Below, one piece after another: positions 6,398 through 29,353 of a stretch of 29,353 nucleotides of DNA. Position numbers and translations under genes: made by a program. Source of the DNA: a virus; the IMG/VR virus record IMGVR_UViG_3300045988_109387, positions 1-29,353 of that record. The stretch is one strand, 5' to 3'. The notes below the pieces were generated by a model, which saw only the letters and a list, made by a program, of their open reading frames with translations, was not told the origin of the DNA and did no database searches. How positions within the stretch are numbered: position 1 is the first letter of the stretch; each line of letters begins with the position of its first letter.

Positions 6398-6506
6398 TTC
6401 TGCTCCTTTGAATATGGTATTATGGGTATTGGCTCCTTTATTTGCCATTGTGTTGACTGGAAGGCCCGTCATCGTATTGGAACGGTGACGGGCTTTCTTA
6501 GTTGGT

Positions 6507-7331: not shown

Positions 7332-7385
7332 TTTTGTTCCTTTCGGTTGGCGTGTTTGTTTTTGGTGTGTTGTGCCGTTTTTATT

Positions 7386-7811: not shown

Positions 7812-7819
7812 GGGGGTCC

Positions 7820-9148: not shown

Positions 9149-9221
9149 TTTTCCTCCGGGGAAATGAATAGGTCCTACCGTTTATTGTAACGATAGGACC
9201 TAATTGTTTACTGGCTGGTTA

Positions 9222-9509
9222 TCAGGCGGATGCCATTAGTCCTGCGTTGATCAGGGCGTTCACTACCTGTTCTATCGTGCCGGTGGTCGGGGCGACGTAA
9301 GCGGCCTTGGTGATCGTGGCGGCGGGGCCAACGGGGCCAGCCGGGCCAGCCGGACCAACATCACCCTTGGGGCCAGCCGGGCCTTGAGGGCCCTGTCCGA
9401 AAGCCACCGGCTGCCCCTCCTCGTCCACGAAGTTGATGACCTTAACCGTGTTCAGATTATCTTCCGGCAGTGCCTTGCCGCCGATTCGGGAATACATTTC
9501 AGCGCTCAT
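9222..9509 (-). CDS. Collagen-like repeat protein (possible head fibre or decoration)
   Basis: 95 aa with eight uninterrupted G-X-Y triplets (GPQGPAGPKGDVGPAGPAGPVGPA). The ATG at 9509 lies 2 nt after the capsid TGA (9514..9512). Confidence 0.7.
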   Translation of the reverse strand: MSAEMYSRIGGKALPEDNLNTVKVINFVDEEGQPVAFGQGPQGPAGPKGDVGPAGPAGPVGPAATITKAAYVAPTTGTIEQVVNALINAGLMASA

Positions 9510-9511
9510 GA

Positions 9512-11317
9512 TCAGGCCTTCGGCTTGATGACCACTGCGGACTTTTCAGCATCCAAACCACCGCCAGCGTAGATTTCCTGCAAGTATTCGTTGGTGTTGG
9601 TCTGGAGGGCGAAGTTCGTGAACGCTTCGATGGAAGTGTCACCGACGAGAGCGTAGTGGGAAGCCGACATGACTACGCCGGCCACCTTCTTGTCGTCTTC
9701 CGCGGTCCACCATTCCGGGGTGATGATCTGGGAGACGCCAAGAGCGCGGGCGAGGGTGTCGTCACCGCCGAGGGCGATGTACGTGTTACCGTTCGCATTG
9801 GCGGACAGGAGCAGGTCGGCTACCGTGTCGGCATTGCAGACGAGGACCTTGTTGCCCTGCGCGCGGACCATGTGGGAGGCCTTCACGAAGCCCATGAGCG
9901 GTGCGTCTTCGGTGAGCGTGTAGGTGCGGGCGAACTTGTTGCCAGCCCATTCCGACTCGGAGTCGGCTGCGTCGGTGGTGACGGAACGGAAGTGTGCCAT
10001 GTCATCGTAGCCGCCGAGCACGACCTGACGTTCGATGGTCTGGACGATGTAGTTCGGCAGTTCGGAGAGGATGTAACGGAGCAGTGCGCCCGGCCTCTGC
10101 GTACGACGGATGTCACCCTTGTTCAGGGTGATGTACTTGTACGTGTAGTCGGCGGTGAGTTCACGCTTCACGAAAGCCACGGACTGGTTCCTCTTCTGGG
10201 TGCCGTAGGAGGAGACCGGGTAGCCGTGAGCGCGGGACGCTTCGACTAGGCCGACGGTGTTGCCGCCGATGGTGAGACGGTCCATGCCGGTCTTACGGAA
10301 CAGGTTCCACAGGCCGGAGCCGCGAGTATTCAAAGCGTCACTGATCGTGGTGATGGCTTCGGTCGGGATGAACTTGCTCACGTCTCCACTGATTACGCCG
10401 AAGGAAGCGGTGTCAGACATGTTGCGGGACACGGTGTCGGACCATTCCTTGTGGAAGGCTTCCACGCCCTTGTTATCGTTGTTGACGAGGGCGTGTTCGA
10501 ACGCGGCCATGGCGTTCGGGGAGTCGAGCCACGTTTCACGGGAATGGGAGAAGGAGGCGACGCCGGACTGCTTGGCGGTGCGGTTGTTCTTGTTGATGAT
10601 GACGAGCGGACGCTTGTTGGCGGACTGTACCGGTTCCTCCGGGGTGGTGGTCGCTGCGGTTTCGTTGGCGTCGGTCTGGTTGCTGACCGCTTCGGTGAGG
10701 TCTTCGGCGGCGTTCTGCATGATGTCGGTGATGGACGAGGTCAGGTTGGCGGCTTCGTCCGGGGTGAGTTTGAATTCGGCGACGGTGCGTGCCACCTTGT
10801 TCATGAGGTTCGGGTTCATGTTATCTCCATTTCTTTGGTTGATTGATGTGAAGGCTGCTTTCGGGTCGGCTCCACGGTAGACGACGCTGATTTCGACCAG
10901 TTCGCTGTCATGGATGATGCCGTCCTTGTTGGGCCGTTCGGGGAATTCGACGGTGATACTGAAACTGTTGGTCAGACATCCGTCTGCAGCGAGACGTCGG
11001 ACGCGTTCGCCGTTGTCGACTTCGCTGAGCTTCGCTTCGGCCATGAGTCCGGCGTCGGTGATCCATAGGCGGGTGATGGTGCCTGCCTGTGCTTCGATGC
11101 TGGGCTCGTGGTCGATGAGAAGGGGGAGTGTGAGTTGGTCTGATTCCGTGAGCTCGTCCACGAGTTTCAACGTGCCGTCGATGAGTGGCGCTTTGAGCGT
11201 GGCTAGGTCCACGGTGAGGCCGTTGCTCATTTTCTTACCGCTGTTGGCGAGGAATGTGAGGGTTCGACCTTCGGTTTCAGCGGCACCGCCGTGAGTGAGA
11301 CTCTCGCGAATCTTCAT
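9512..11317 (-). CDS. Prohead protease (HK97/S78-like) fused to an HK97-fold major capsid protein
   Basis: I chose the ATG at 11317 (MKIRESL) because AAAGGA lies 6 nt upstream. The N-terminal ~170 aa fit the HK97 prohead-protease pattern (LPLLIDHEPS...SFSITVEF...LVEISVVYRGADPKAAF). The C-terminal ~300 aa have the length and position of a capsid protein. It is one uninterrupted frame of 601 aa. Confidence 0.75.
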   Translation of the reverse strand: MKIRESLTHGGAAETEGRTLTFLANSGKKMSNGLTVDLATLKAPLIDGTLKLVDELTESDQLTLPLLIDHEPSIEAQAGTITRLWITDAGLMAEAKLSEVDNGERVRRLAADGCLTNSFSITVEFPERPNKDGIIHDSELVEISVVYRGADPKAAFTSINQRNGDNMNPNLMNKVARTVAEFKLTPDEAANLTSSITDIMQNAAEDLTEAVSNQTDANETAATTTPEEPVQSANKRPLVIINKNNRTAKQSGVASFSHSRETWLDSPNAMAAFEHALVNNDNKGVEAFHKEWSDTVSRNMSDTASFGVISGDVSKFIPTEAITTISDALNTRGSGLWNLFRKTGMDRLTIGGNTVGLVEASRAHGYPVSSYGTQKRNQSVAFVKRELTADYTYKYITLNKGDIRRTQRPGALLRYILSELPNYIVQTIERQVVLGGYDDMAHFRSVTTDAADSESEWAGNKFARTYTLTEDAPLMGFVKASHMVRAQGNKVLVCNADTVADLLLSANANGNTYIALGGDDTLARALGVSQIITPEWWTAEDDKKVAGVVMSASHYALVGDTSIEAFTNFALQTNTNEYLQEIYAGGGLDAEKSAVVIKPKA

Positions 11318-11413
11318 ATCATCCTTTCGGATTGGGGCAGTGGTGCTCGTCAGTGGCACCAGTGGTTGATGTACTGACGAGCACAATGATATCACGGTAA
11401 TTGGTGCGGCTGG

Positions 11414-13507
11414 TTAGTCTTCCGCGACTTCGTAGGCTTCGTAGCAGCGGCATCGTGGGTGGCCGTTCGGCGTGCTCATGGTTTCGAAGCTGTTGGTGTA
11501 GGTGTGGTCGCCGATGTTGATAACCGCGTCTTTTGGCATGTAGGCGGAGTCGAGTGGCTTTGTCGTGCCTTCCATGTGTTGGCAGAAGTCGCATGTGTTA
11601 CCGTCTCCGGTGGTGCGCCATACTTTCTGGAGTTTGACGCCTAGTGTTTCGCTGAGGTTACGGGCGCTGTATAGGCTTCCGAGTCTTTGGGATTGGACGG
11701 TTTCACATCTTGCTATTAGTTCGGCGTGGCCGTTGCCCATTCGGGTTAGTTCGTTGTTTAGTCGGTGTGCGTCCCATTGTTCCGTGTCGGCTCGTTTTAG
11801 GAGTTCCAGGGTTTTGTGGGTGATGGTTTGGGATGTTGTGTCGGCTATTTCGTGTAGGTGGGTTTCGTAGGCTGTTTTGATGTTGTCGGGTAGTGTGGTC
11901 CACTCGTAGAGTTTCTGCCAGTCGTTGGTCGTGTAGGACTGGATATCGATGGCGATGGGGTTTTCGGGGTGGATTTCGGCCCATGCGGTGAGGATTTGTT
12001 CGAGTTTCATGCCGGTTTTGCGCGCGTATTCGGTGAGGTGGGCGATGAGAATGTCTTCTACGTCGTTGACCCATTGGCGGCTGATGGTTTCGAGGTCGTT
12101 TTTCAGTCCGTTTTGGGTGTGTCGGGTGAGGCGGATGATTCTGTCGACGTATGTGTGGGTTGCTGGCAGTATTCGGTTTTCGGTTGGCATGTCGTCTGTT
12201 TTCTTGGCGGCTTTCGTGATGTTTCTTTTCGAAGGGAGGGATGGGAGTGGGGTTATGTCGTTTTGGCGGAGGTTGAGGCGCTTGTAGGAGTCGGGGAGTC
12301 CTAGTGCTTCGACTGCGCTTTCGACCGTGGCTCCCATGTTGACGAGTTGGATGAGGTTGTCGACGCGGATCTGTTGGGTTTCCGCTTGTGTTTTCTCGAC
12401 TTCTGTCTGTGCTGGCAGGTCGAGGTCGAAGGCGATGCCGTAGCCGAGGCCTCCGGTGATGCGGTCGAGCTCGAACTGCCATTTGTCCCATACGGTCATG
12501 CAGAGGGGTTTGAGGGTGTTTTCGATGAAGGCGCGTTCGGCCATTTCCGCGTTGGCGTAGGTTTGGCCGTTGTCGATGCCGCGGACGATGTCGGGGACGG
12601 CGAGCGCGTTGGCGAGCCGGTTGTTGACTACGTTGGATACGGTTTGCAGGTCGAGCGTGTCGTTGGAGTTCTGGAATGGGACCCAGACGAGTTTGCTGGT
12701 TTGGCTTGGCTTGTGGGTTGTCGGGTCGACGGGCACCATGTTGTATACGATCCCGTTGTTGTTGCCGGCCCCGCGGAAGGTTTCTTCGAGGCGTGCGCGG
12801 TTGCGTTGGAAGTCTTCGGCGTTTTCGGAGACGATGCCGAGCATGCCGGCCGGTACTGCATTGTTGCCGAAGAAGCCGCGTTCGTAGTCGGCGATCATGT
12901 CGTCCACGTTGGCCCATTTTTTGATGGTCATGGCGGGGCTGATGCCTCGGGTGGGGTCGTTCGGGTGGCGACTATAGCTTAGGGAGATGGTTTCGTCTCG
13001 GGTGAATTCGTAGGGGCGGGGACCGTCTCCGAGGTCCATGGTTACGCGGTGGTACCAGTCGCTGCGGCTGTCGTTGTATACGCGGCTGTTCGTGGGGAGG
13101 ATAGTGTAGCCGGTGATGTTGTCGGGGGTGATGTTGCCGCCGGGGCCTTCCGTTGTCCAGACGAGGATGTCGACGTGGGATTGGGTGAGCATGCCGGATG
13201 CGATTAGTTTAAGGAATTCGAGGCAGCTGTAGGTGTCGTTTGGTGCGTATAATGCTCTCAGCGCTGCAGGGGCTGGGTTGAGTTTCTCGCCATCAGTGGT
13301 GACGGCGTAGGGGATTACTGTACTAAAGCGTTGTGCAATGGCGTTGACGTAGGGGAAGATGTTGTCGTAGATGTCGTGCATTGGGATGGTGTTGCCTCCC
13401 ATTGGCTGCCATGTGTTGCCGCCTGCTGGGGTGGGGGTGGTGTGTGGGGCGTTGGTACGGCCGAAGGCGCTTGTGAAGCCTGCACGAATGTTGTTGAGAA
13501 TGGTCAT
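11414..13507 (-). CDS. Portal protein fused to a MuF-like (SPP1 gp7 family) minor head domain
   Basis: 697 aa. The N-terminal ~420 aa are portal-like (FFGNNAVPAGMLGIVSENAEDFQRNRARLEETFRG). The C-terminus carries the MuF signature (ARCETVQSQR...WRTTGDGNTCDFCQHMEG...PNGHPRCRCY). Confidence 0.8.
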   Translation of the reverse strand: MTILNNIRAGFTSAFGRTNAPHTTPTPAGGNTWQPMGGNTIPMHDIYDNIFPYVNAIAQRFSTVIPYAVTTDGEKLNPAPAALRALYAPNDTYSCLEFLKLIASGMLTQSHVDILVWTTEGPGGNITPDNITGYTILPTNSRVYNDSRSDWYHRVTMDLGDGPRPYEFTRDETISLSYSRHPNDPTRGISPAMTIKKWANVDDMIADYERGFFGNNAVPAGMLGIVSENAEDFQRNRARLEETFRGAGNNNGIVYNMVPVDPTTHKPSQTSKLVWVPFQNSNDTLDLQTVSNVVNNRLANALAVPDIVRGIDNGQTYANAEMAERAFIENTLKPLCMTVWDKWQFELDRITGGLGYGIAFDLDLPAQTEVEKTQAETQQIRVDNLIQLVNMGATVESAVEALGLPDSYKRLNLRQNDITPLPSLPSKRNITKAAKKTDDMPTENRILPATHTYVDRIIRLTRHTQNGLKNDLETISRQWVNDVEDILIAHLTEYARKTGMKLEQILTAWAEIHPENPIAIDIQSYTTNDWQKLYEWTTLPDNIKTAYETHLHEIADTTSQTITHKTLELLKRADTEQWDAHRLNNELTRMGNGHAELIARCETVQSQRLGSLYSARNLSETLGVKLQKVWRTTGDGNTCDFCQHMEGTTKPLDSAYMPKDAVINIGDHTYTNSFETMSTPNGHPRCRCYEAYEVAED

Positions 13508-13566
13508 TTTACCTCGTTTTGCAGTGGTATGTTGTATGTTTCATAGTTTATCGCAGTGTATGTTGG

Positions 13567-14826
13567 TTAGCATACTGCGACGTCCCATGAGGGGAGTTTT
13601 GGTGGTTCGTAGCAGGCAAGGAGCAGGCTGTCGGCGAGGTCGGGGCTCCCGAGGTTCATTGAGTCCTTGTAGTCTTGTTTGCTTTCTATTTGCCGTTGGT
13701 TGCGGCTGGTTATGTGCCATTTGCGTGTGGTTAGTTCGGTGGTGAGTTTGGGGAGGTCGGCGAGTTGGGGGTTGATGCTGAGTTGGGGGAGCATGGTAGC
13801 GAAGTCGAACCATAGTTCCGAAGCGATGTTGGGGTATTGCTGATCTTTGGCTTTGCCGGCGTAGTTGATGCCGGTAACTGGTAGTCCGTATGTCTTGAGT
13901 AGGTCGGTGACTCCTCCGCCGACGCCTGTATCGTCGACGCGGATGTCGATCGGCTGGTGTTGGGATGCGCGTAGTCTGATTCGTTCGACTGTGTCGACGA
14001 TGCTTGCGTGGGTCCATGATTCGAGTGTTTCGATCCGGTTGCCTGTTTTGATGGTGAGGGCGGTGCGGTCGTTGCCGTATCGTGCGACGTCGACTCCGAA
14101 GGTTGTGGGTCCGTCGGTTGCCGTGCGTTGGAGGGCTTCGTTGATCATGGTGTCGCTGATGAGCTGGTTGTTGGTGTCGGCGTATGGGAGACCGAGCCAG
14201 ACGTGTCCGTAGTCGGCTGTCTGCTTGTCGGCTTCGATCATGTCGAGGACGTCTTGGCTGATGAATCGGCGTACGTCTTCGAAGGTGGTGTGCCAGTGGC
14301 ATGTTTGGCGTAGTCGTTCTTCCGAGTCTGTGGTGATGAAGTATGCCCAGATCGGATCATGGCTGGTGAGGGGGTTCCAAGTGAAGATCAGGGTCGAGTT
14401 GGGGCGTCTGATGGTCGGGATGAGTGTTGTCAGGCTTGTTTTGCTGATGGTTTGTGCTTCTTCGACCCAGCAGACGTCGATGCCTTCGATGCTTTTGATG
14501 GATTGGAGGTTGTCGTGGAGGCCTCGGAAGATGAAGCTGCTGCCGTTGATGTGGCTGATGCCGTCGCGTCGTATTTCGAAGCCTTGCAGTCCGAATTTTT
14601 CGATGGTTCCGGTGAGGAGTTTGTAGACGGAGTCGGTGATGGAGTTCTGGAATTCTCGGGCGCAGAGGACGGTGATTGGCTGTACGGAGGCTCGGAGGAT
14701 AAGGCTTTGCGCGACGGCGGTGCTTTTCCCTGAGGCTCGGCCGCCTGAATAGCAGTAATAACGATATGGTGGCGTCTCCGTGTGGATCCACCACCATAGA
14801 TCGCGGTATGGTCTTGCTATCTGCAT
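13567..14826 (-). CDS. terL: Terminase large subunit (PBSX/Terminase_3-like)
   Basis: 419 aa with Walker A GGRASGKS, Walker B DVCWVEEA and a C-terminal nuclease-like half. It lies directly downstream of the small ORF called TerS. Confidence 0.9.
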   Translation of the reverse strand: MQIARPYRDLWWWIHTETPPYRYYCYSGGRASGKSTAVAQSLILRASVQPITVLCAREFQNSITDSVYKLLTGTIEKFGLQGFEIRRDGISHINGSSFIFRGLHDNLQSIKSIEGIDVCWVEEAQTISKTSLTTLIPTIRRPNSTLIFTWNPLTSHDPIWAYFITTDSEERLRQTCHWHTTFEDVRRFISQDVLDMIEADKQTADYGHVWLGLPYADTNNQLISDTMINEALQRTATDGPTTFGVDVARYGNDRTALTIKTGNRIETLESWTHASIVDTVERIRLRASQHQPIDIRVDDTGVGGGVTDLLKTYGLPVTGINYAGKAKDQQYPNIASELWFDFATMLPQLSINPQLADLPKLTTELTTRKWHITSRNQRQIESKQDYKDSMNLGSPDLADSLLLACYEPPKLPSWDVAVC

Positions 14827-14843
14827 GTGTCCTGTTTAGGTGT

Positions 14844-15254
14844 TTACTGGCTGTCTTTACTGTTTGTTGGGTTGTCGTCGAAGACTTCGAGGGTGATGTT
14901 CGGCGGTTCGTATCCGGTGACGTTTACGTCGGTGGATTGGCGGGCCTTGCCGTCGAGTCGGTCGATATAGTCGGCTGCAACCTTTGGGTCCTTGGAGGCG
15001 TTGAGGATGTGTTTGATGGCGATTTTCTGGACCATGGTGAGGTTCGGGTCTTTTATTTTTTCGTTGAATTCTACGGCGGTGAGCTTGCTGAATTCGCGGA
15101 TCCAGCGGGTGGGGCTGGTGTCTTTGGTCCACGAGCCTCGGTCCTGTGGGCGTTCTTGGAATCCGCCTTTGCCTGTTGGATTGCATACTCCGCTGATGAT
15201 TCGGCCGCGGTGGTCTCTTACTACTTCTGTCATATTGCCTATTTTAGCAGGCAT
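14844..15254 (-). CDS. terS: Terminase small subunit (putative)
   Basis: Sits immediately upstream of terL. It has a basic N-terminus containing NPTGKGGFQERPQD. I chose the ATG at 15254. The track's GTG at 15269 lies inside a terminator stem, and the ATG at 15233 is an alternative start. Confidence 0.55.
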   Translation of the reverse strand: MPAKIGNMTEVVRDHRGRIISGVCNPTGKGGFQERPQDRGSWTKDTSPTRWIREFSKLTAVEFNEKIKDPNLTMVQKIAIKHILNASKDPKVAADYIDRLDGKARQSTDVNVTGYEPPNITLEVFDDNPTNSKDSQ

Positions 15255-15255
15255 G

Positions 15256-15283
15256 GAAAAAGCCCCCACGTTGGGGGTGGGGG
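15256..15283 (-). terminator. Intrinsic terminator between the early minus-strand block and terS
   Basis: The minus strand reads CCCCCA-acg-TGGGGG followed by CTTTTTCC and then the terS ATG. An A-run on the other side means it could act in both directions. Confidence 0.65.
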
Positions 15284-15289
15284 CCGTGG

Positions 15290-15427
15290 TCAGGCGAGGA
15301 TGAAACAGATGAGGAGTTTCAGTAGTGCGACGCTGCCTGTTATGAGAAGGATGGCCGCGATGGCGATGAGGAGGTAGGCGAGGGTTTTTCCTATCTTGTA
15401 GCTGATTGGGGTATGTTGCTTGTTCAT
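15290..15427 (-). CDS. Small membrane protein (45 aa, below the ORF-track cutoff)
   Basis: Hand translation gives MNKQHTPISYKIGKTLAYLLIAIAAILLITGSVALLKLLICFILA*. It has one clear TM helix, sits between the ssb stop and the terminator, and has a weak RBS. Confidence 0.35.
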   Translation of the reverse strand: MNKQHTPISYKIGKTLAYLLIAIAAILLITGSVALLKLLICFILA

Positions 15428-15442
15428 GTCGTTCTTTCTATT

Positions 15443-15898
15443 TTACCATTCGTCGACGGTGGAGAACTGTGTGTACGGGTCGGGCTGGTTGGTGTTTCCC
15501 CAGTTTGCGGCCTGTTGCTGTGGTGCCGGCTGCTGTGGCGCGGACTGTTGGGATTTGGCTTTCTTGAGGATCAAGGTGATGGTCGCGTAGTTGATGGTGA
15601 AGTCGGTGCGTGGCTGCCCGTTGCGGTCGGTGTCTGTCTGCCATTTCAGGTCGCCTTCGACGCGTACCGGGGTGCCCTTGTGGAGCGTTTGAAGGTAGGT
15701 GGCCGCGAGTCTCTGGTCGTATTCGAAGATGGTGGCGAACATGGTGTTGTGACCCACCCACTGCTGGGTCTGCTTGTCTTTGTGGACGCCGTTGGCGGCT
15801 ACGCGGATGAGGAGGTATGGGGTGCCGTTCTTGGTCTGCTTTTGTTCCGGTTCGGCGACGAGGCGGGCTGAGGGGAGGATGATGTGGGGGTCGTTCAT
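15443..15898 (-). CDS. ssb: Single-stranded DNA-binding protein
   Basis: I chose the ATG at 15898 (MNDPHIILPSARLVAEPEQKQTKNGTPYLLIRVAAN...) because GAAAGG lies ~10 nt upstream. It has an OB-fold SSB pattern, a Gln/Pro-rich tail and ends in FSTVDEW. The longer track ORF overlaps the Bro gene. Confidence 0.8.
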   Translation of the reverse strand: MNDPHIILPSARLVAEPEQKQTKNGTPYLLIRVAANGVHKDKQTQQWVGHNTMFATIFEYDQRLAATYLQTLHKGTPVRVEGDLKWQTDTDRNGQPRTDFTINYATITLILKKAKSQQSAPQQPAPQQQAANWGNTNQPDPYTQFSTVDEW

Positions 15899-15921
15899 GG
15901 GTGTTGAGCCTTTCTTTTGGG

Positions 15922-16728
15922 TTAGTTGGTGGCTGTTCCGAGGGCTTTGGTCAGGAGGGTTTCTCCGATCCGTTTGTGGAGGAGGGCCAGTCCTTTTCTG
16001 GTGATGCGTACGGTTGGCGGGAAGGCGAATTTCGTACCGTCCGTTTTGGTACCGTGTTTTGTGGACATGACCATTACGAGGTGCCCGGCCGTGCAGTGTT
16101 TTGCTGTCGCATGCCATGAGCCATTGGTTTTGTAGATCCAGTCGTTGTCGCTCATCCATTCGCGTAACTGTTTTTCGCTGATTGGTGTGCCGGAGTTGGA
16201 GAGGATCTTTGCTGCGTCGCGGACAAGCAGTCGATCTTCCACGTTGGTGAAATCGTCAAGCGCTTGTGCTTTTGGTTCCAGTTCCTTGATTTGAGCGTCT
16301 TTGGTTTGGAGCTGTTGGTTCTTGAGTCCGATGGTCTTCTGTGCGACAAGCACGGCCTTCGCGAGGATGGCCATATCATCGTCCGTGTCCGTGGTTGGGA
16401 TGTAGCCGCCAGTACTGCGAATCTGCGGCAACACTTCATGCGTCACCCAACGTTGGAATTCCTTGGCCTCCGGTTTACGAGACTTCATCACGAGACGGTA
16501 GAAGCCAGATTCAGAGATGATGTATGCCTGTTGCCTACGGCCAATCGAATCGATGACTTCAGTAGTACTGAACTCGTCATCATCGAACATTTTGACGGTC
16601 TCGGTTGGATTACCGAGGTTAAGGATGCTCATGCAATCCTTGAGTACAAGCCACGGTTCACCGTGCTCGTCGGTCAGCGTGCGCATTGGTATGTCGTTGA
16701 AGGTGAATGTTTGGATTTCGGTGTTCAT
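15922..16728 (-). CDS. Bro-N / KilAC-domain antirepressor
   Basis: 268 aa. The N-terminus matches Bro-N (FTFNDIPMRTLTDEHGEPWLVLKDCMSILNLGNP...EAKEFQRWVTHEVLPQIRSTGGY). The C-terminal half resembles the KilA-C/ANT domain. Confidence 0.8.
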   Translation of the reverse strand: MNTEIQTFTFNDIPMRTLTDEHGEPWLVLKDCMSILNLGNPTETVKMFDDDEFSTTEVIDSIGRRQQAYIISESGFYRLVMKSRKPEAKEFQRWVTHEVLPQIRSTGGYIPTTDTDDDMAILAKAVLVAQKTIGLKNQQLQTKDAQIKELEPKAQALDDFTNVEDRLLVRDAAKILSNSGTPISEKQLREWMSDNDWIYKTNGSWHATAKHCTAGHLVMVMSTKHGTKTDGTKFAFPPTVRITRKGLALLHKRIGETLLTKALGTATN

Positions 16729-16786
16729 TTTGGTGCCTTTTTTGGTGTGATTGCATAGGTTGTTTGTCTACTGTGGTGCCGTTAAA

Positions 16787-16812
16787 GGGGTGGATGATCC
16801 ACCCACCCCCTT
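16787..16812 (-). terminator. Weak stem-loop after the HTH gene
   Basis: The minus strand reads GGGGGTGGGTGG-atcat-CCACCCC followed by only TTTAAC. The short U tract makes this uncertain. Confidence 0.3.
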
Positions 16813-16835
16813 AAGTCGACTGGTTGGTTGTGGAG

Positions 16836-17015
16836 TTACTTGTCTGACGAGTCCCCTTCTTTGTCGGGGATTACGTCCGGGTCGAGGAAGTAGCATCGGC
16901 CGACCTTGACTGCGTGGAGTCGTCCCTCGCGGATGAAGCGGCGGACGGTCTGGATGTTGAGCTTCCAGCGGGATGCGTATTCGGGAACTGTTGCTGTGTA
17001 ATCTTTAGCGTTCAT
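16836..17015 (-). CDS. Excisionase-family/MerR-like HTH DNA-binding protein (59 aa), apparently leaderless
   Basis: EYASRWKLNIQTVRRFIREGRLHAVKVGRCYFLD fits the excisionase-type HTH pattern. I chose the ATG at 17015 because it has no SD and lies 7 nt after a TATAAT box. The track's TTG at 17051 is the alternative. Confidence 0.6.
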   Translation of the reverse strand: MNAKDYTATVPEYASRWKLNIQTVRRFIREGRLHAVKVGRCYFLDPDVIPDKEGDSSDK

Positions 17016-17022
17016 AGGTCTT

Positions 17023-17051
17023 ATTATATAACGGTTCGAGTGCCTGTACAA
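17023..17051 (-). promoter_or_regulatory. Sigma-70-type promoter: TTGTAC-N17-TATAAT
   Basis: On the minus strand the -35 TTGTAC is at 17051..17046 and the -10 TATAAT at 17028..17023, with an exact 17-nt spacer. The ATG at 17015 begins 7 nt after the -10. Confidence 0.6.
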
Positions 17052-17110
17052 CTTGTTTCACATCGGTATGTCGTTGGAGTGTGGGGGCATGGCCCGGAGG
17101 TTCCGGGTAT

Positions 17111-17158
17111 AAAAAAGCGCCCAACCGGGGGGAAGCATATGGAAACCCGGTTGGGCGC
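17111..17158 (-). terminator. Strong intrinsic terminator with no annotated gene upstream on that strand
   Basis: A 13-bp GC-rich stem pairs 17117-17129 (GCGCCCAACCGGG) with 17146-17158, around a 16-nt loop. On the minus strand it is followed by TTTTTT (17116..17111). Confidence 0.65.
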
Positions 17159-17276
17159 TCATCGGGGGAGAATATACGCGATGAGGTACAGGAACCAGTA
17201 TGGCTTCGTTTTGCCCGGATTGCAACCGTCGTGTGCGGCGTCTCGTCGTCCGTTCGGCGTGTCGCGATGGCGAACA

Positions 17277-18111: not shown

Positions 18112-18447
18112 ATGTGGAGCGGACGGAGCAAATACCATGCGAAGAAAACCGTCGTCGACGGCATCACCTTCGACTCGCGTAAGGAGGCCGACAGGTATCT
18201 CGTCCTGAAGGGCATGGAGGAGGATGGAGCCATCGAGGGCCTTCACAGACAGGTCCGCTATGAGCTCGTGCCGGCCTTCGACGTGGACGGCAGACATTAC
18301 CGGCCCGTCTATTACGTGGCTGACTTCGTCTATGTGGAGGACGGCAAAACGGTAGTCGAGGATGTGAAAGGCATGAGGACCGACGTGTACAGGCTCAAGA
18401 GCAAGCTCTTCGCACGACGGTATGGCATGAGTATCAAGGAGACGTGA
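18112..18447 (+). CDS. DUF1064-family protein (PD-(D/E)xK-like nuclease fold)
   Basis: 111 aa. SKYHAKKTVVDGITFDSRKEADRY...YYVADFVYVEDGKTVVEDVKG matches the DUF1064 pattern. Confidence 0.75.
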   Translation: MWSGRSKYHAKKTVVDGITFDSRKEADRYLVLKGMEEDGAIEGLHRQVRYELVPAFDVDGRHYRPVYYVADFVYVEDGKTVVEDVKGMRTDVYRLKSKLFARRYGMSIKET

Positions 18448-18465
18448 CGGTCTAGGAGCGTGCGT

Positions 18466-18518
18466 GGCCCCGGTTGGTCTTGGGAAGAGATTCCCGGACT
18501 GGCCGGGGCCTTGTTTTT
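18466..18518 (+). terminator. Intrinsic terminator after the dut-DUF1064 unit
   Basis: GGCCCCGG (18466-73) pairs with CCGGGGCC (18503-10). The interior has wobble-rich pairing, and TTGTTTTT follows. Confidence 0.65.
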
Positions 18519-18586
18519 CAGCCATTCCTGACATGGTAAGGAGGTGGGCAGAAAACCGACTACCTTCAATATTTGAGATTGACCCT

Positions 18587-18650
18587 TCAATACCTAGGTA
18601 TCGACCCCTTCGATACCTAGGTATCGAACCCCTCGATACTCAAGTATCGA
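18587..18650. promoter_or_regulatory. Three 18-bp dyad-symmetric sites at exact 23-bp spacing (operator- or iteron-like)
   Basis: O1 is TCAATACCTAGGTATCGA (18587-18604). O2 is TCGATACCTAGGTATCGA (18610-18627), a perfect palindrome that extends to 20 bp at 18609-18628. O3 is TCGATACTCAAGTATCGA (18633-18650). Each is preceded by CCC(C)T. Confidence 0.7.
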
Positions 18651-18660
18651 ACAAAGACCC

Positions 18661-18716
18661 CTCTACTAGAGACCCTTCTACTAGAAGATCCTTCCACTAG
18701 ACCCTTTTAAGTAAGA
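18661..18716. repeat. Second set of short dyad repeats (CTCTAcTAGAG, CTTCTAcTAGAAG, plus two degenerate copies)
   Basis: The two clear copies are at 18661-18671 and 18675-18687, and the degenerate ones at 18691-18701 and 18704-18716. The period is ~15 bp, and each copy is again preceded by CCCYT. Confidence 0.55.
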
Positions 18717-18717
18717 C

Positions 18718-18775
18718 GGCTCCCGAGGGGAGCCGCGTGCGGCCCGAGGGGAGCCAATCCCAACCCAAAGGGATT
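18718..18775. repeat. GC-rich hairpin / direct-repeat cluster
   Basis: A hairpin GGCTCCC-gag-GGGAGCC lies at 18718-18734. CCCGAGGGGAGCC is repeated at 18722-34 and 18743-55. A second hairpin, AATCCC-N8-GGGATT, lies at 18756-75. Confidence 0.55.
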
Positions 18776-19249
18776 GGGAGCCGAGAGCGGTGAGGGGCCT
18801 AGCCTCGATGGCTTAGGTGACTGAGGCATGGAGCCATGGAGTCTGACCTGATGTCTTCCATGCTTCTTCCATGGCTCTGAGCATCGAGGTGGATACCGTC
18901 TGGGCTTCGATGCTGCCCTTCGGGCCTTGGTCTCGGTTCCCGACCTGTGGGGAGCATGGAGGAGAGTTGGTCGGCGCTTGGCTTAGGTGGCCCTCTCACG
19001 GCTTGTCGTTCTCGATGCTTTTTCGGTGCTTGTTTGGTCTGGAACGTCGCTTTCGTGCGTAAAGGCCTTTTTGACGGGCTGTCGTATGTAAGTCTTGACG
19101 AGTTACCGGAGTTGCCGGGAAAATCGGTCTGAAGGGCCTTTACGTGCGTTCTAGAGGCATATGCGGTAGAAAGCATGGGAGAGGAATGCCTTGAATGGAA
19201 GACTGAGCCACGCTGGCAGGCCCGAACTCAATGCCTTTTCCGAGACTTG

Positions 19250-19258
19250 TGGTATACT
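19250..19258 (+). promoter_or_regulatory. Extended -10 promoter PC (TGGTATACT)
   Basis: Lies ~35 nt upstream of the 19293 ATG and has the same TGnTATAYT form as the other family members. Confidence 0.45.
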
Positions 19259-19292
19259 TAAAGCAACACCAACACTAAGAAAGGATCACGCA

Positions 19293-19538
19293 ATGGATAT
19301 CTACGAAGCCATCAACAATCTCCTCGTCAAGAGGTATGGCGTCCACTTCAGCAAGGAAGGCGAAGAAAAGTCACGAAAGTTCTTCGACGGACTGTGTGCG
19401 AAGTTCGGTGACGAGGAAGTATCCGAAGCATGGGAGATCGCATGCGGGAAGTACGACAATCCGGTGACCGCGCTTTCGAAGCTCGGAGGCATCCTCTACA
19501 ACCGCAGCATCTTCAGCTCCTTCATCGAGGAGGCCTGA
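19293..19538 (+). CDS. Hypothetical protein (81 aa)
   Basis: The ATG at 19293 has AAGAAAGGA upstream. The longer track ORF starts in non-coding DNA. It is tightly coupled to the next gene. Confidence 0.55.
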   Translation: MDIYEAINNLLVKRYGVHFSKEGEEKSRKFFDGLCAKFGDEEVSEAWEIACGKYDNPVTALSKLGGILYNRSIFSSFIEEA

Positions 19539-19539
19539 C

Positions 19540-19830
19540 ATGGGAAAGCTGTCATTCGACGAAGGCCTCGCCGAAGAGATAGGCCTCAATGCGGCAATCA
19601 TCCACGAACGCCTTTCCGACCTCTGCGCAGAAAAGGCGAGAAACAACGCCGACTACCACGACGGGTCATTCTGGATTCGAATCACACGGAAAGAACTACC
19701 CGGACTTTTCCCGTACATGCCTCCGACTGCCGTCATCAGGGCGATGAAAAAACTGACAGACGGAGGCTACGTCCTCGTCGGCCATTACGATGAAGACCAC
19801 AACGTCACCAACTGGTACACTGCAACCTGA
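19540..19830 (+). CDS. Hypothetical protein, possibly winged-helix
   Basis: 96 aa, starting 1 nt after the upstream stop codon (one intervening base). LPGLFPYMPPTAVIRAMKKLTDGGYVLV resembles a wHTH recognition region. The function is uncertain. Confidence 0.45.
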   Translation: MGKLSFDEGLAEEIGLNAAIIHERLSDLCAEKARNNADYHDGSFWIRITRKELPGLFPYMPPTAVIRAMKKLTDGGYVLVGHYDEDHNVTNWYTAT

Positions 19831-19857
19831 AAACATCGGCGTGTCGTCCAGAAAACG

Positions 19858-19866
19858 TGATACACT
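19858..19866 (+). promoter_or_regulatory. Extended -10 promoter PD (TGATACACT) with CGGCGTGTCG at 19837-19846
   Basis: It has the same motif-to--10 spacing (~11 nt) as PA and PE. Unlike the other cassettes, a terminator follows this promoter instead of preceding it. Confidence 0.45.
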
Positions 19867-19928
19867 AGAGACATACGCCATGTGAGGCACTCCTACCACT
19901 CACTTGGAGAGCATAAATCACATGGTAT

Positions 19929-19988
19929 GAATCCCATTGATTGCCACCGGGGTAGGAGACGGTAACAGTCGGTGGGATTCACTTTTTT
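19929..19988 (+). terminator. Long leader hairpin plus T6 just upstream of the replisome-organiser gene (attenuator candidate)
   Basis: GAATCCCA (19929-36) pairs with TGGGATTC (19973-80). There are ~7 further pairs (3 of them wobble) and an apical ACCG/CGGT stem with a 10-nt loop GGGTAGGAGA. TTTTTT is at 19983-88, the GGGAG RBS at 19989-93 and the ATG at 20004. Confidence 0.6.
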
Positions 19989-20003
19989 GGGAGCGTAATC
20001 AAA

Positions 20004-20882
20004 ATGAAATACACGATCGAAGGCTTCAGCCAAGAAGCGGCGCTGTCCATGCAGGCCACCATCACCGAAAACGGAAACACGAAAACCATCAAACTCGACA
20101 TCGTCGACCTGACAATCCTCCGCTGGATCGTCGACTTCTACCCGAACATGAAAAAGACCATCATCGACGGCACGGAATACGCATGGCTCGACTACACGGC
20201 CTTCATTGAAGACATGCCCCTTCTAGGACTCAGCAACCAGTCACTGTACAAGCGGTGCATCAAAATGGTCCAGCTAGGCATACTCAAGCACAAGACAGTA
20301 CGCAGCAAGGGCACCTTCTCTTATTATGGCTTCGGCCCGGAATACCCACACCTCGTCAGCCGCAGCAACAAGACGGCCAACGCACCGGCATCAACCCAGA
20401 ACCACGCCCCCTCCACAGAACACGACCCATGGGCAGACACTACAACCGCAACCACCGAACAACCCCAACTCCCCATCGCCGAACCGGAACCCCAGCCACA
20501 ACCGAAAAAGACCCGCAAAGCCAAAAGCTTCGACGACATCATCGACGCCTACACCAACGACCCGACGACCAAGGACCTGCTCAGAGCATGGCTCCAAAAC
20601 CGCAAAGCCAAGCGCTCAGCCATGACCGACAGGGCCATCAAAAGCTGCATCGACAAACTCGACAGGCGCGCACAGGAAAGCCATATGAGCGTCAACGACT
20701 ACCTCGATGAGGTCATCTGCCGCGGCTGGAGCGCCTTCTTCCCAATCGAAAACTACCGAAACAACGGATACCAGCAAAAACCTCGGCAGCAATCCCAGCA
20801 GCCACACTGGGACCTCACGGAAGAGGAGCTGCGCAGACAAAAGGAAGCAGACGACGAGTGGATGAAAAACTGCGTCTTCTAA
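20004..20882 (+). CDS. Replisome organiser / DnaD-like replication initiation protein
   Basis: 292 aa with a wHTH-like N-terminus and a Pro/Gln/Thr-rich linker. The C-terminal segment LLRAWLQNRKAKRSAMTDRAIKSCIDKLDRRAQESHMSVNDYLDEVICRGWSAFFP is typical of phage replisome-organiser or DnaD-type C-terminal domains. It lies upstream of the DnaC-like loader. Confidence 0.65.
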   Translation: MKYTIEGFSQEAALSMQATITENGNTKTIKLDIVDLTILRWIVDFYPNMKKTIIDGTEYAWLDYTAFIEDMPLLGLSNQSLYKRCIKMVQLGILKHKTVRSKGTFSYYGFGPEYPHLVSRSNKTANAPASTQNHAPSTEHDPWADTTTATTEQPQLPIAEPEPQPQPKKTRKAKSFDDIIDAYTNDPTTKDLLRAWLQNRKAKRSAMTDRAIKSCIDKLDRRAQESHMSVNDYLDEVICRGWSAFFPIENYRNNGYQQKPRQQSQQPHWDLTEEELRRQKEADDEWMKNCVF

Positions 20883-20929
20883 ACCACGACGCGCCGACAG
20901 CACAATGCCGACGACACATGAGATAACAT

Positions 20930-20938
20930 TGTTATAAA
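20930..20938 (+). promoter_or_regulatory. Possible extended -10 (TGTTATAAA) upstream of the loader gene
   Basis: It lies within the dyad ATAACattGTTAT, 22 nt upstream of the ATG at 20960. There is no upstream motif copy, so support is weak. Confidence 0.3.
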
Positions 20939-20959
20939 CAACAAAAAGGAAACCAAACC

Positions 20960-21808
20960 ATGGAAAACGGAATCGACATCATCAACACCATCAACGCACG
21001 AGCTGCACGCCAATACGCGGAACACGAAGGAGACTACCGCAACGAAGACGGCCTTCTCATGTGCGGCAAATGCCACTCAGAGAAGGAGTGCGTCCTAACC
21101 AGGCCCGACGGCACCACGAAAACCGTCCACTGCGCATGCGACTGCAGTGTCGCACAGCACAAAAAGGAAGACGAAGAAAAACGCAAGCGCGACCGCATGC
21201 AATACCTCGACAGCATGAGACGCACCGGCTTCCCAGACGCGGAAATGCGCGAATGGGCCTTCGCCAAATCCGACCACGGCGACCAACGGAACGAAACCAT
21301 CGCCCGCAAGTACGTGACGAACTTCGACGCCATGCGCGAACAAGGCACCGGACTGCTCCTCTGCGGTCAGGTAGGCACCGGCAAAAGCTTCCTCGCGGCA
21401 TGCATCGCCAACGAGCTCATCAGCCAAGGCACTCCATGCCTGATGACCAATTTCAGCCGTCTCATCAGCCGGATCAGCGAAAAATTCGGAGGAGACCAGA
21501 AATACCTCGACAACCTCAACCGCTTCGACCTTCTCATCATCGATGATCTGGGAGCGGAACGCGATTCGGACTTCACATGGGAGAAGGTAATGAACGTCAT
21601 CGACGCACGATACCGTGCCGGATTGCCGATCATCATCACCACCAACCTCGGTCCGAAGGACTTCGCCGATCGTGGAGACATCCGCCGTCAGCGCGTCTTC
21701 AGCCGTTTGAAGGAGATGTGCATCTGCCTTGAAGTCAAAGGCGAGGATAGGAGAGGGAAGAAAATGCAAGACAAGCTGACATCGGCCAGACCACTCCTCG
21801 GCATCTGA
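20960..21808 (+). CDS. DnaC/IstB-like AAA+ helicase loader with an N-terminal Cys-rich region
   Basis: 282 aa with Walker A GQVGTGKS, Walker B LLIIDDLG and sensor IIITTN. The N-terminus has CGKCHSEKEC...CACDC. Confidence 0.85.
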   Translation: MENGIDIINTINARAARQYAEHEGDYRNEDGLLMCGKCHSEKECVLTRPDGTTKTVHCACDCSVAQHKKEDEEKRKRDRMQYLDSMRRTGFPDAEMREWAFAKSDHGDQRNETIARKYVTNFDAMREQGTGLLLCGQVGTGKSFLAACIANELISQGTPCLMTNFSRLISRISEKFGGDQKYLDNLNRFDLLIIDDLGAERDSDFTWEKVMNVIDARYRAGLPIIITTNLGPKDFADRGDIRRQRVFSRLKEMCICLEVKGEDRRGKKMQDKLTSARPLLGI

Positions 21809-29285: not shown

Positions 29286-29313
29286 AAAAACCCCGGCAAA
29301 CAACCGGGGCTTT
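29286..29313. terminator. Bidirectional terminator ending both the late operon and the 28923 gene
   Basis: AAAAA-CCCCGG-caaacaa-CCGGGG-CTTT. On the minus strand it is followed by TTTTTCG. Its right half is also present at 6-11 because of the terminal repeat. Confidence 0.75.
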
Positions 29314-29353
29314 ACCATATCAGACCGACCACGACAACGTCGCCGAAGTCCAC
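29299..29353. repeat. Terminal direct repeat, copy 2 (identical to 1..55)
   Basis: Exact 55/55 match to the start of the window. Confidence 0.9.

What the first reader, a model, noticed from the sequence alone, without database searches (positions are those of the whole stretch)
18800..19200. Structure-rich ~400-nt segment with locally inverted base skew: candidate large ncRNA or inverted remnant
The plus strand here is G+T rich (40/60 at 18961-19020 by hand count), while flanking plus-strand DNA is A+C rich (G+T 25/60 at 19301-19360). The segment is therefore compositionally 'upside down' relative to its arc. It contains nested long-range helices: CCTCGATG (18803-10) with CATCGAGG (18882-89), enclosing GAGCCATGGA (18831-40) with TCCATGGCTC (18868-77). 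There is a GCC-cUUCGg-GGC tetraloop hairpin on the plus strand (18915-25). CGTAAAGGCC (19058-67) pairs with GGCCTTTACG (19135-44), extendable with wobbles. TGGCTTAGGTG is repeated at 18809 and 18979, and TCGATG-type boxes recur four times, which could allow alternative pairings. All six frames look non-protein-like.
Basis: partly seen in the sequence, partly recalled or inferred. Interest (0 to 1): 0.65.

Follow-up and report, generated by a model that had tools for sequence, protein, structure and literature searches.

The report
Conserved structured core of phage origin
A 400-base non-coding stretch of a small human-gut phage is conserved and rich in hairpins, always sits beside the repeats that mark the replication origin, and so is most likely the constant part of that origin rather than a gene or a decayed remnant.

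Summary
The segment 18798-19197 is a discrete module. I found 34 distinct versions, all in ~30-kb human-gut phage contigs, with 83% mean column identity. Third codon positions of the neighbouring genes are only 65-78% identical, so the segment is under purifying selection. It is not protein-coding: substitutions show no 3-base periodicity, 1-nt indels are frequent, and the 125-aa minus-strand ORF is not kept in frame. It matches no Rfam family, and BLAST searches of the phage and plasmid record collections found nothing. The plus strand folds much better than shuffled controls (alignment z = -5.95, against -2.7 for the minus strand). Covariation is thin: one 4-bp hairpin carries three independent compensatory changes, and the structure as a whole does not beat the controls. 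No conserved promoter precedes the segment on either strand. In every locus it lies just downstream of an iteron cassette. The cassette type matches the DNA-binding domain subfamily of the replisome-organizer protein in 27 of 27 loci, although the DNA between them recombines freely. Best reading: the constant, single-strand-structured part of the phage replication origin. Whether it acts as a transcript or as unwound DNA is unresolved. Interest is moderate.

The parts
18492..18518 (+). Intrinsic terminator (6-bp G+C stem followed by a T run) that ends the upstream dUTPase-DUF1064 operon. It shields the origin region from rightward transcription.
   Evidence: terminator scan. The surrounding block 18448-18532 is 82-94% identical in most related loci.
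18583..18651 (.). Three 23-nt tandem repeats, each with the palindromic core TCGATACCTAGGTATCGA. Part of the variable left side of the origin region; the binding partner is unknown.
   Evidence: D1, I1-I3. The sequence differs between related loci.
18655..18709 (+). Iterons: four ~15-nt direct repeats AGACCCTTCTACTAG (type 'a'). Inferred binding sites of the replisome-organizer protein, i.e. the specificity part of the origin.
   Evidence: D2, D3. The iteron type matches the organizer N-terminal subfamily in 27/27 loci, while the intervening promoter segment assorts independently.
18718..18734 (.). Hairpin GGCTCCC-GAG-GGGAGCC (7 bp), followed by a partial repeat of its 3' arm at 18743-18755.
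   Evidence: D9. Conserved in loci with the 'type 1' upstream arrangement.
18754..18777 (.). Hairpin CCAATCCC-(8 nt)-GGGATTGG. In other loci an unrelated hairpin, GAAAGAAAGAT..ATCTTTCTTTC, occupies the same position, so a hairpin just upstream of the core is kept while its sequence is not.
18798..19197 (+). The core: a conserved, non-coding, G+T-rich, hairpin-rich module. This is the finding itself.
   Evidence: Both boundaries are mosaic junctions in the alignments. 34 distinct versions with 83% mean column identity. Non-coding. More conserved than flanking third codon positions. Fold z-scores.
18831..18877 (+). 5'-domain hairpin: arms GAGCCATGGA(G) / (C)TCCATGGCTC with a variable apical part. 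The nine central base pairs are invariant in all 34 sequences. Five distinct genomes (L009, L013, L076, L077, L101) carry a second upstream copy of this domain; L108 and L112 carry extra partial matches.
   Evidence: I11; helix 3.
18915..18925 (+). Hairpin GCCC-UUC-GGGC, the only helix with clear compensatory support: three independent double changes in L009, L063 and L111.
   Evidence: helix 7, 98.5% of cells paired.
19039..19154 (+). 3' domain, the most conserved part. A long imperfect inverted repeat (19039-47 with 19146-54; 19057-75 with 19127-45) encloses YTGACGNG direct boxes: two in the window, three in the family consensus.
   Evidence: I5, D7; helices 10-14; one G-C to U-A compensation in L115. 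The L007 24-nt deletion removes one box unit.
19250..19258 (+). Extended -10 promoter element TGgTATACT of the replication-gene operon (P_rep), 35 nt upstream of the first ORF.
   Evidence: Read directly from the sequence. The TGnTAnnnT motif recurs at about the same offset from the core in 27 of 34 loci.
19293..21808 (+). Replication operon: orf81 (19293-19538), a 96-aa winged-helix initiator-like protein (19540-19830), the 292-aa replisome organizer (20004-20882) and a DnaC-like helicase loader (20960-21808).
   Evidence: Pfam, PHROGs. Related loci show the same gene order with HTH_36 / Phg_2220_C and IstB_IS21 hits.

Best explanation
The segment is the constant part of the phage's replication-origin region. 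The origin has a variable specificity part: iteron cassettes bound by the N-terminal winged-helix domain of the phage replisome organizer. It also has a constant ~400-bp core next to them, which is kept whatever initiator type, helicase-loader type or promoter type the phage carries. The core most likely works in single-stranded form. Either the G+T-rich top strand folds into hairpins once the organizer has opened the DNA, which would leave the poorly folding A+C-rich bottom strand free for helicase loading or priming. Or a top-strand origin transcript folds in the same way, as in the lactococcal phage c2 origin. Shown here: the core is conserved, non-coding and under purifying selection; its fold stability is strand-asymmetric; it adjoins iterons that co-vary with the organizer. 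Inferred: that the iterons are the origin, that the core takes part in initiation, and how it does so.
For: 1. Module and constraint. There are 34 distinct versions, 76-90% identical to the window, with sharp mosaic boundaries at 18798 and about 19197. Third codon positions of the flanking dUTPase, DUF1064 and orf81 genes are only about 0.65-0.78 identical.
2. Non-coding. Period-3 power is not above shuffles (p = 0.24), 1-nt gaps are frequent, and the minus-strand ORF changes frame between homologues. Its only database relatives are 24 singleton ORFs with 48-77% amino-acid identity.
3. Origin context. The core lies between a terminator-bounded iteron region and the replication operon. The iteron type (a, b, b*, c, d) matches the organizer N-terminal subfamily in 27/27 loci. 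The class A/B promoter segment lying between them occurs with every major type, so the pairing is held by selection rather than by linkage alone.
4. Single-strand structure. As RNA the plus strand gives z = -4.1 and as DNA z = -5.1. The consensus fold of the alignment gives z = -5.95 on the plus strand and -2.7 on the minus strand. There are three independent compensatory changes in hairpin 18915-25 and one in helix 19039-47/19146-54. Among columns invariant in a training half of the sequences, predicted paired columns vary about half as much in the held-out half as unpaired ones.
5. Shielding from transcription. A plus-strand terminator lies upstream. In class B relatives a canonical minus-strand terminator abuts the core's right end.
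6. Base skew. Third-position skew forms two arcs that ignore gene orientation. The switch points lie at about 5.1-5.3 kb and about 17.3-19.5 kb, roughly opposite each other on the 29.3-kb circle. This places an origin or a terminus in this region.
7. Precedent. The lactococcal c2-type origin is a non-coding stretch between two promoters whose structured transcript is needed for replication (PMC7150918).
Against: There is no direct evidence of replication function. No AT-rich unwinding element is present: 100-nt windows in 18500-19299 have 47-67% G+C. The sign of the skew is opposite to the bacterial rule if the origin is here: leading strands would be A+C-rich, so on skew alone this site could equally be the terminus. 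Covariation over the whole structure does not beat the slid-partner controls. The excess of G-U-compatible substitutions is largely explained by a general A/C-to-G/T substitution bias. Some helix positions break without compensation: the centre of helix 18880-18914 in at least 9 sequences, and G19064-C19138 in 6. The helices are largely built from one repeated box (RGCATSGAGG, about 9 copies in both orientations), so part of the apparent structure could be a by-product of a protein-binding array. For the transcript version of the model, no conserved promoter was found.
Confidence: 0.5

Rival explanations
1. A free-standing, trans-acting structured ncRNA of about 400-490 nt, transcribed from the plus strand. 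It could be a regulator, a decoy or an anti-defence RNA. Its position beside the origin would then be incidental.
For: The composition is G+U-rich and opposite to its surroundings. The plus-strand fold is much better than controls and much better than the minus strand. Compensatory changes occur in hairpin 18915-25. Stable hairpins of two unrelated sequences sit just upstream, where a 5'-terminal stem-loop would be. In class B relatives a hairpin follows the core.
Against: No conserved sigma-70 or extended -10 promoter lies upstream in any of 34 loci, although such motifs are obvious at P_rep. A strong terminator lies about 280 nt upstream. No plus-strand terminator follows the core in the window's class. 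No Rfam family matches. Covariation is not significant overall. The strict adjacency to iterons of every type is left unexplained.
Confidence: 0.2
2. A double-stranded protein-binding array: the repeated boxes (RGCATSGAGG in both orientations, YTGACGNG direct repeats) are sites for a phage or host DNA-binding protein, as in a DnaA-box cluster or an enhancer of P_rep. The predicted hairpins would be a by-product of inverted box copies.
For: About 8-9 box copies lie within 215 nt, roughly ten times the genome-wide density. The arms of the 5' hairpin are invariant while its loop varies. Box centres vary without compensation. Natural deletions fall between direct repeats (L007).
Against: The three compensatory changes in 18915-25 preserve only complementarity, which a base-specific duplex-binding protein would not select for. 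The strand-asymmetric composition and the plus/minus fold asymmetry are not expected for duplex binding sites. Conservation extends over the full 400 nt, not only over the boxes.
Confidence: 0.13
3. A non-functional relic: an inverted gene remnant, or a conserved linker kept only because it mediates homologous recombination between mosaic modules.
For: Its composition resembles that of the left arc, where genes lie on the minus strand. A 125-aa minus-strand ORF spans it. Both boundaries are mosaic junctions, and five genomes carry a duplicated 5' domain flanking an exchanged iteron cassette.
Against: It is 83% conserved, against 65-78% at flanking third codon positions. No protein homologue exists outside these phages, and amino-acid identity is below nucleotide identity. 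Substitutions show no codon periodicity. Fold stability is well beyond chance.
Confidence: 0.07
4. A real protein-coding gene on the minus strand (125 aa) or a small plus-strand ORF.
For: The minus-strand frame 18799-19176 is open. Gene callers annotated ORFs of 74-203 aa here in other contigs.
Against: The frame is not conserved. 1-nt indels are scattered through every candidate frame, and there is no period-3 signal. There are no Pfam or PHROG hits. All database relatives are singleton clusters. Open frames are expected from the low T content of the minus strand.
Confidence: 0.02

Closest known systems
Origin region of lactococcal prolate phages (c2 type) with its non-coding PE1-T transcript
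   Same: Both are a non-coding stretch of a few hundred bases inside the origin region, bounded downstream by the next early promoter. Both have no ORF or ribosome-binding site, and in both sequence and structure are conserved within a type. In c2 the transcript's length and structure are reported as crucial for origin function (PMC7150918, citing Schiemann et al. 2004).
   Different: The c2 origins need no phage initiator and have a defined upstream promoter (PE1). Here the core adjoins iterons matched to a phage-encoded organizer, and no upstream promoter could be found. There is no sequence similarity: a BLAST search of the phage record collection found nothing.
Iteron-type origins with matched initiators (lambda ori and O protein; SaPI ori and Rep; iteron plasmids). 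Comparison from general knowledge.
   Same: Direct repeats lie next to the initiator gene, and repeat type and initiator DNA-binding domain change together (27/27 loci). The organizer is followed by a DnaC-like loader, as with lambda O and P.
   Different: Those origins pair the iterons with a short AT-rich unwinding element. Here the adjoining conserved element is 400 bp long, has ordinary G+C content, and is G+T-rich on one strand and hairpin-rich.
Single-strand initiation signals (ssi/pas sites, the phage G4 complementary-strand origin, sso of rolling-circle plasmids) and the primer RNA II of ColE1. Comparison from general knowledge.
   Same: All are orientation-specific, non-coding elements of 100-500 nt whose function depends on hairpins formed by one strand, as DNA or as RNA, at or near an origin.
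   Different: The phage encodes no rolling-circle Rep or dedicated primase. No sequence motif of those elements was recognised, and no promoter for a primer RNA was found.
Large phage-associated structured RNAs in Rfam (GOLLD, ROOL, HEARO and others)
   Same: They are large, structured and non-coding, and are found in phage or prophage DNA.
   Different: No match to any of 4227 Rfam models, even at E <= 10 over 18400-19400. Those RNAs have strong covariation support and are not origin-linked.

Membership tests
Any Rfam 15 RNA family | Covariance-model score at or above the family's gathering threshold | tested here: not met
   No hit in the whole window at gathering thresholds. The best hits at E <= 10 in 18400-19400 are chance-level miRNA and CRISPR models outside the core or far below threshold.
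Structured ncRNA (general criteria) | Fold more stable than shuffled controls, on one strand | tested here: met
   Single sequence, plus strand: z = -4.1; minus strand: z = -1.8. Alignment consensus: z = -5.95 on plus and -2.7 on minus.
Structured ncRNA (general criteria) | Significant covariation supporting the helices | tested here: inconclusive
   9 pairs show double changes, against 4.3 +/- 1.7 in shuffles (6/500 shuffles reach this), but slid controls give 2-10 such pairs (five of the six give 7-10). Only hairpin 18915-25 is convincing, with 3 independent compensations. The sequences are about 83% alike, so power is low.
Structured ncRNA (general criteria) | Own promoter and terminator | tested here: not met
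   No conserved extended -10 or -35/-10 pair upstream on either strand in the loci scanned (34 for the extended -10, 28 for the -35/-10 pair), and no plus-strand terminator after the core in the window. Only consensus-type promoters were tested.
Iteron-type replication origin | Direct repeats adjacent to the initiator gene | tested here: met
   Four 15-nt iterons at 18655-18709, about 1.3 kb upstream of the organizer gene. Equivalent arrays are present in all related loci.
Iteron-type replication origin | Iteron sequence co-varies with the initiator's DNA-binding domain | tested here: met
   27/27 loci are concordant over five types, while the promoter segment between them assorts independently.
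Iteron-type replication origin | AT-rich DNA-unwinding element next to the iterons | tested here: not met
   G+C is 47-67% in every 100-nt window of 18500-19299.
Iteron-type replication origin | Strand-composition switch at the origin | tested here: inconclusive
   Third-position skew switches at about 17.3-19.5 kb and about 5.1-5.3 kb, independent of gene orientation. The sign is the reverse of the bacterial leading-strand rule, so the site could be an origin or a terminus.
Iteron-type replication origin | Supports autonomous replication when the initiator is supplied | not testable with these tools
   Requires cloning and a host.
Transcription-dependent origin (c2 PE1-T, ColE1 RNA II) | Promoter directing a non-coding transcript through the origin | tested here: not met
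   No conserved promoter motif upstream, and a terminator lies at 18492-18518. Read-through or a non-consensus promoter cannot be excluded.
Transcription-dependent origin (c2 PE1-T, ColE1 RNA II) | Non-coding, stably folded stretch bounded downstream by the next early promoter | tested here: met
   (P_rep at 19250-58).
Protein-coding gene or pseudogene of a known protein | Conserved reading frame, codon periodicity, homologues in protein families | tested here: not met

The most novel reading that the evidence does not exclude
The core encodes a new class of ~400-490-nt structured RNA that is an obligatory, initiator-independent component of a phage replication origin. It could be a primer or R-loop-forming transcript, or a scaffold for helicase loading. 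It would be conserved across phages that have swapped initiators, loaders and promoters.
Probability: 0.22. Interest if true: 0.75.

Novelty: new variant of a known kind. Interest (0 to 1): 0.45.

Why it matters
Replication origins of uncultured gut phages are almost never mapped. Here comparative data alone locate one. They also split it into a swappable specificity part (iterons matched to the initiator) and a 400-bp constant part with unusual properties: ordinary G+C content, one-strand G+T richness and hairpins, in place of the classic AT-rich unwinding element. If the constant part acts as a folded single strand, as RNA or as DNA, it would be an origin architecture not described for iteron-type phage origins. 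It would also give a defined cis element for building vectors or for typing this phage group. If it is only a binding-site array, the finding is ordinary.

Tried and rejected
- Rfam at gathering and at permissive thresholds: nothing (related loci).
- tRNA and tmRNA scans: none.
- blastn and tblastn of the region against the phage collection, and blastn against plasmids: no match.
- Two pattern scans of 185,579 species genomes: six hits. The four from the first scan showed no further similarity to the core in blastn. The two from the second scan gave no nhmmer match. So no prophage or host copy was found.
- The metagenome pattern scan added only two new variants.
- A profile-HMM search of all fetched loci, including more distant relatives of the replication protein and Bifidobacterium phage BlindUri1, found no diverged copies.
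- Pfam and PHROGs on the 125-aa ORF: nothing.
- An all-against-all search for covarying column pairs was swamped by transition noise. Restricting it to transversion compensations left only hairpin 18915-25.
- The apparent excess of G-U-preserving substitutions largely disappeared in a held-out test, once the A/C-to-G/T substitution bias was accounted for.
- A promoter-like site inside the core (TTGACG-18-GAAAAT at 19095-19124) is not conserved.
- A DnaA box (GGTGGATAC at 18888-96, 7/9 match, judged by eye) is not conserved.
- A rolling-circle nick motif (CTTGATA) occurs in only one sequence, and no such Rep gene is encoded.
- attP was rejected because no integrase was found. A packaging site was rejected because the terminase genes lie about 3.5 kb away, and the clustering of contig ends near the core is explained by assembly breaks at a conserved segment flanked by variable ones.
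- A covariance model was not built, because only sequence already held could be searched and the HMM search had found nothing further.

Full report
**Setting.** The window is a complete, circularly permuted phage genome of about 29.3 kb: its first 55 bases repeat at its end. Structural genes run leftward on the minus strand, from large terminase, portal and protease-capsid to tape measure and tail proteins. Early and replication genes run rightward from about 17.3 kb. The portal protein is about 50% identical to those of two Bifidobacterium asteroides phages. All close relatives come from human-gut metagenomes. No integrase was found.

The finding lies in an 845-nt gap between a DUF1064 gene (18112-18447) and a small ORF (19293-19538). 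That ORF opens the replication operon: a 96-aa winged-helix protein, a 292-aa replisome organizer and a DnaC-like loader.

**Checking the observation.** The G+T excess is local. The segment has G+T of 0.62, against 0.354 +/- 0.049 in the arc to its right, and both flanks are near-neutral. The predicted structure is well beyond chance, more so on the plus strand. As RNA, z = -4.1 (plus) and -1.8 (minus). As DNA, z = -5.1 and -3.6.

Two details need correcting. The hairpin at 18915-25 is a 4-bp stem with a UUC triloop, not a cUUCGg tetraloop. A 125-aa minus-strand ORF spans the segment.

**The segment is a discrete, conserved, non-coding module.** Searches used the neighbouring replication protein, two conserved DNA patterns, and the spurious ORF as a handle into protein databases. 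They gave 34 distinct versions. In many loci similarity to the window starts abruptly at 18798, and in all it ends near 19197. Beyond those points the sequences fall into unrelated classes.

- Mean column identity is 83%. Third codon positions of the flanking dUTPase, DUF1064 and orf81 genes, in the same genome pairs, are 0.65-0.78 identical. The module is therefore under purifying selection.
- It is not coding. The minus-strand ORF changes frame between homologues. Variability shows no 3-base periodicity (p = 0.24), and 1-nt gaps are frequent. Candidate plus-strand ORFs are interrupted by 1-nt indels in a third of the sequences.
- Among 5.8 billion proteins, the ORF's only relatives are 24 unnamed singleton ORFs with no Pfam domain, most from similar ~30-kb contigs. 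Their amino-acid identity (48-77%) is lower than the nucleotide identity. Open minus-strand frames are expected because that strand is poor in T.
- This removes the pseudogene and inverted-remnant readings.

**Structure and strand.** The RNAalifold consensus of 22 sequences has an energy of -90.6 kcal/mol on the plus strand, against -60.6 +/- 5.0 for column-shuffled alignments (z = -5.95). The minus strand gives -39.2 against -26.7 (z = -2.7). About 96-97% of cells in 98 predicted pairs are standard pairs.

Covariation is thin because the family is shallow.

- Pairs with changes on both sides number 9, against 4.3 +/- 1.7 in shuffles. Slid-partner controls give similar counts.
- The clear case is hairpin 18915-25, with three independent compensatory changes in three different pairs. 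Helix 19039-47/19146-54 has one G-C to U-A change.
- An apparent sevenfold excess of G-U-preserving over pair-breaking transitions largely disappeared in a held-out test. It reflects a general bias toward G and T on this strand.
- That same test showed that predicted paired columns vary about half as much as unpaired ones.
- Some helix positions break without compensation.
- Most helices are built from one box, RGCATSGAGG. It is present about nine times in both orientations within 215 nt, roughly ten times the genome-wide density.

Selection on intrastrand pairing is demonstrated for at least one hairpin and is plausible for the long 3' inverted repeat. The full model is unproven.

**Transcription signals.** An intrinsic terminator at 18492-18518 closes the upstream operon. 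An extended -10 element (TGgTATACT, 19250-58) lies 35 nt before orf81, and a TGnTAnnnT motif recurs at about the same offset in 27 of 34 loci. No extended -10 or -35/-10 pair is conserved upstream of the core on either strand.

In one class of relatives (class B), a hairpin abuts the core's right end. Read on the minus strand it is a canonical terminator with a U run, so leftward transcription is kept out of the core. The region from the terminator to P_rep therefore looks shielded from transcription. That fits an origin better than a highly expressed RNA gene. Read-through or a non-consensus promoter cannot be excluded.

**Context: an origin of replication.** Upstream of the core every locus has a cassette of short direct repeats, followed by a stable hairpin of one of two unrelated sequences. 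The cassettes fall into five types. The window's type is AGACCCTTCTACTAG repeated four times (18655-18709), preceded by three 23-nt palindrome-containing repeats.

- The N-terminal winged-helix part of the organizer protein falls into matching subfamilies, and the match is perfect in 27 of 27 loci.
- The segment lying between them, either the short class A promoter region or the ~470-nt class B region, occurs with all four major iteron types.
- Recombination has therefore repeatedly separated the two partners, and selection has kept them paired. This is the signature of an initiator and its binding sites.
- The core sits within about 90 nt of the iterons in every type. It is the same whichever organizer type, loader type (about 47% or 78-100% identity to the window's) or promoter class is present.
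- Synonymous-site skew forms two arcs that ignore gene orientation. Tail genes and head genes, both on the minus strand, have opposite third-position skews. The switch points are at about 5.1-5.3 kb, inside the tape-measure gene, and about 17.3-19.5 kb, nearly opposite on the circle. This fits bidirectional replication from, or to, this region. The sign is the reverse of the bacterial rule and remains unexplained.

**Interpretation.** The best-supported reading is that the core is the constant part of the origin, next to the type-specific iterons. It most likely acts as a folded single strand. The compensatory changes select for complementarity, and the composition and fold are strongly strand-asymmetric.

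Two mechanisms fit:

- After the organizer binds, the top strand folds into hairpins and the structure-poor A+C-rich bottom strand is left free for helicase loading or priming.
- A top-strand origin transcript folds in the same way, as in the lactococcal c2 origin, where a non-coding structured transcript between two promoters is needed for replication (PMC7150918).

I cannot separate these two. The missing promoter and the flanking terminators lean toward DNA. The G+U richness and the larger plus/minus asymmetry under RNA parameters lean toward RNA.

Against the origin reading as a whole stand three points: there is no AT-rich unwinding element, the skew has the wrong sign, and there is no functional evidence.

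The rivals are a trans-acting ncRNA, a duplex protein-binding array, a neutral linker and a gene, in decreasing order of likelihood.

**Natural variants.**

- Five distinct genomes (L009, L013, L076, L077, L101) carry a second copy of the first ~95 nt of the core upstream of the iterons; L108 and L112 carry extra partial matches to it. The cassette there is flanked by direct repeats of the 5' domain, which probably traces cassette exchange by recombination within the core.
- L108 lacks alignment columns 112-187, and L111 lacks 139-158.
- L007 lacks one 24-nt YTGACGNG unit.
- Three loci (L067, L108, L114) carry an 11-nt insert ending in CATGGCTT.
- The middle of the core therefore tolerates loss, while the 5' hairpin and the 3' domain are always present.

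**Novelty and verdict.** The module matches nothing in Rfam or in the phage and plasmid record collections. It was absent from the bacterial species genomes scanned (185,579 species). It is confined to one clade of small gut phages. As an origin-associated non-coding element it belongs to a known kind. Its architecture, a long strand-asymmetric hairpin-rich constant core in place of an AT-rich element, is a new variant. Interest is moderate and would rise sharply if a discrete origin RNA were detected.

Noticed in passing
window 1-5300 versus 5600-17200 (switch near 5063-5288, inside the tape-measure gene 3656-5707): Tail and head genes lie on the same (minus) strand but have opposite third-codon-position skews: GC3 +0.27 / AT3 -0.64 for tail genes, -0.57 / +0.53 for head genes. 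The strong base skew therefore follows two genome arcs rather than gene orientation. If the origin is at 18.6-19.3 kb, the sign is the reverse of the usual leading-strand rule.
   Followed up: partly
L010 2346-2970, L020 605-1165, L120 and L121 (reverse strand of each locus), and other 'class B' relatives. Absent from the window.: Between the core and orf81 these loci carry an extra ~470-nt conserved stretch with no convincing ORF. It has a plus-strand extended -10 promoter (TGCTATGAT) embedded in a hairpin that reads as a canonical terminator on the minus strand. About 40 nt further right there is a convergent minus-strand extended -10 (TGTGGTATACT). This suggests a short countertranscript plus a long structured leader. 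There was no Rfam, tRNA or tmRNA match.
   Followed up: partly
window 1-55 and 29299-29353: The two ends of the window are identical over 55 bases, so the contig is a complete circular or circularly permuted genome.
   Followed up: yes
window 18583-18651: Three 23-nt tandem repeats with the palindromic core TCGATACCTAGGTATCGA lie upstream of the iterons. Related loci have different repeats in this position (for example CTCAAAATGAG palindromes or GCCGCAAAATCAG). They may be sites for a second, hypervariable DNA-binding protein.
   Followed up: no
window 19540-19830; L009 organizer gene (L009 about 3626-4474): The 96-aa winged-helix protein is hypervariable between relatives (28-42% amino-acid identity), while the adjacent orf81 is 71-89% identical. 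In L009 a similar domain forms the N-terminus of the organizer itself, and that locus has its own iteron type (CAGTTGTAA, three copies).
   Followed up: partly
L013 1638-1730, L077 4024-4118, L076 477-573, L009 1523-1613, L101 12370-12468 (minus strand); extra partial matches also in L108 and L112: A second copy of the first ~95 nt of the core, including the GAGCCATGG hairpin, lies upstream of the iteron cassette, so the cassette is bracketed by direct repeats.
   Followed up: partly
L108 3078-3420, L111 2996-3379, L007 2430-2807: Natural deletion variants of the core: L108 lacks about 76 alignment columns in the middle, L111 lacks 20 nt, and L007 lacks 24 nt plus 4 nt. L067, L114 and L108 carry an 11-nt insert ending in CATGGCTT.
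   Followed up: partly
window 18804-19018: About eight to nine copies of an RGCATSGAGG-like box, in both orientations, are packed into 215 nt, about ten times the genome-wide density. They form the arms of most of the predicted helices.
   Followed up: partly
Contig ends in L020, L012, L079, L061, L065, L067, L078, L109-L111, L120, L121: Many independent assemblies break within a few hundred bases of the core. This is probably because a conserved segment flanked by strain-variable cassettes forks the assembly graph. Physical genome ends were considered and judged unlikely.
   Followed up: no
L107 (Bifidobacterium phage BlindUri1) 15240-16084: The nearest cultured relative by portal protein has an 846-nt unannotated gap at its divergent gene junction. 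It shows no sequence similarity to the core.
   Followed up: no
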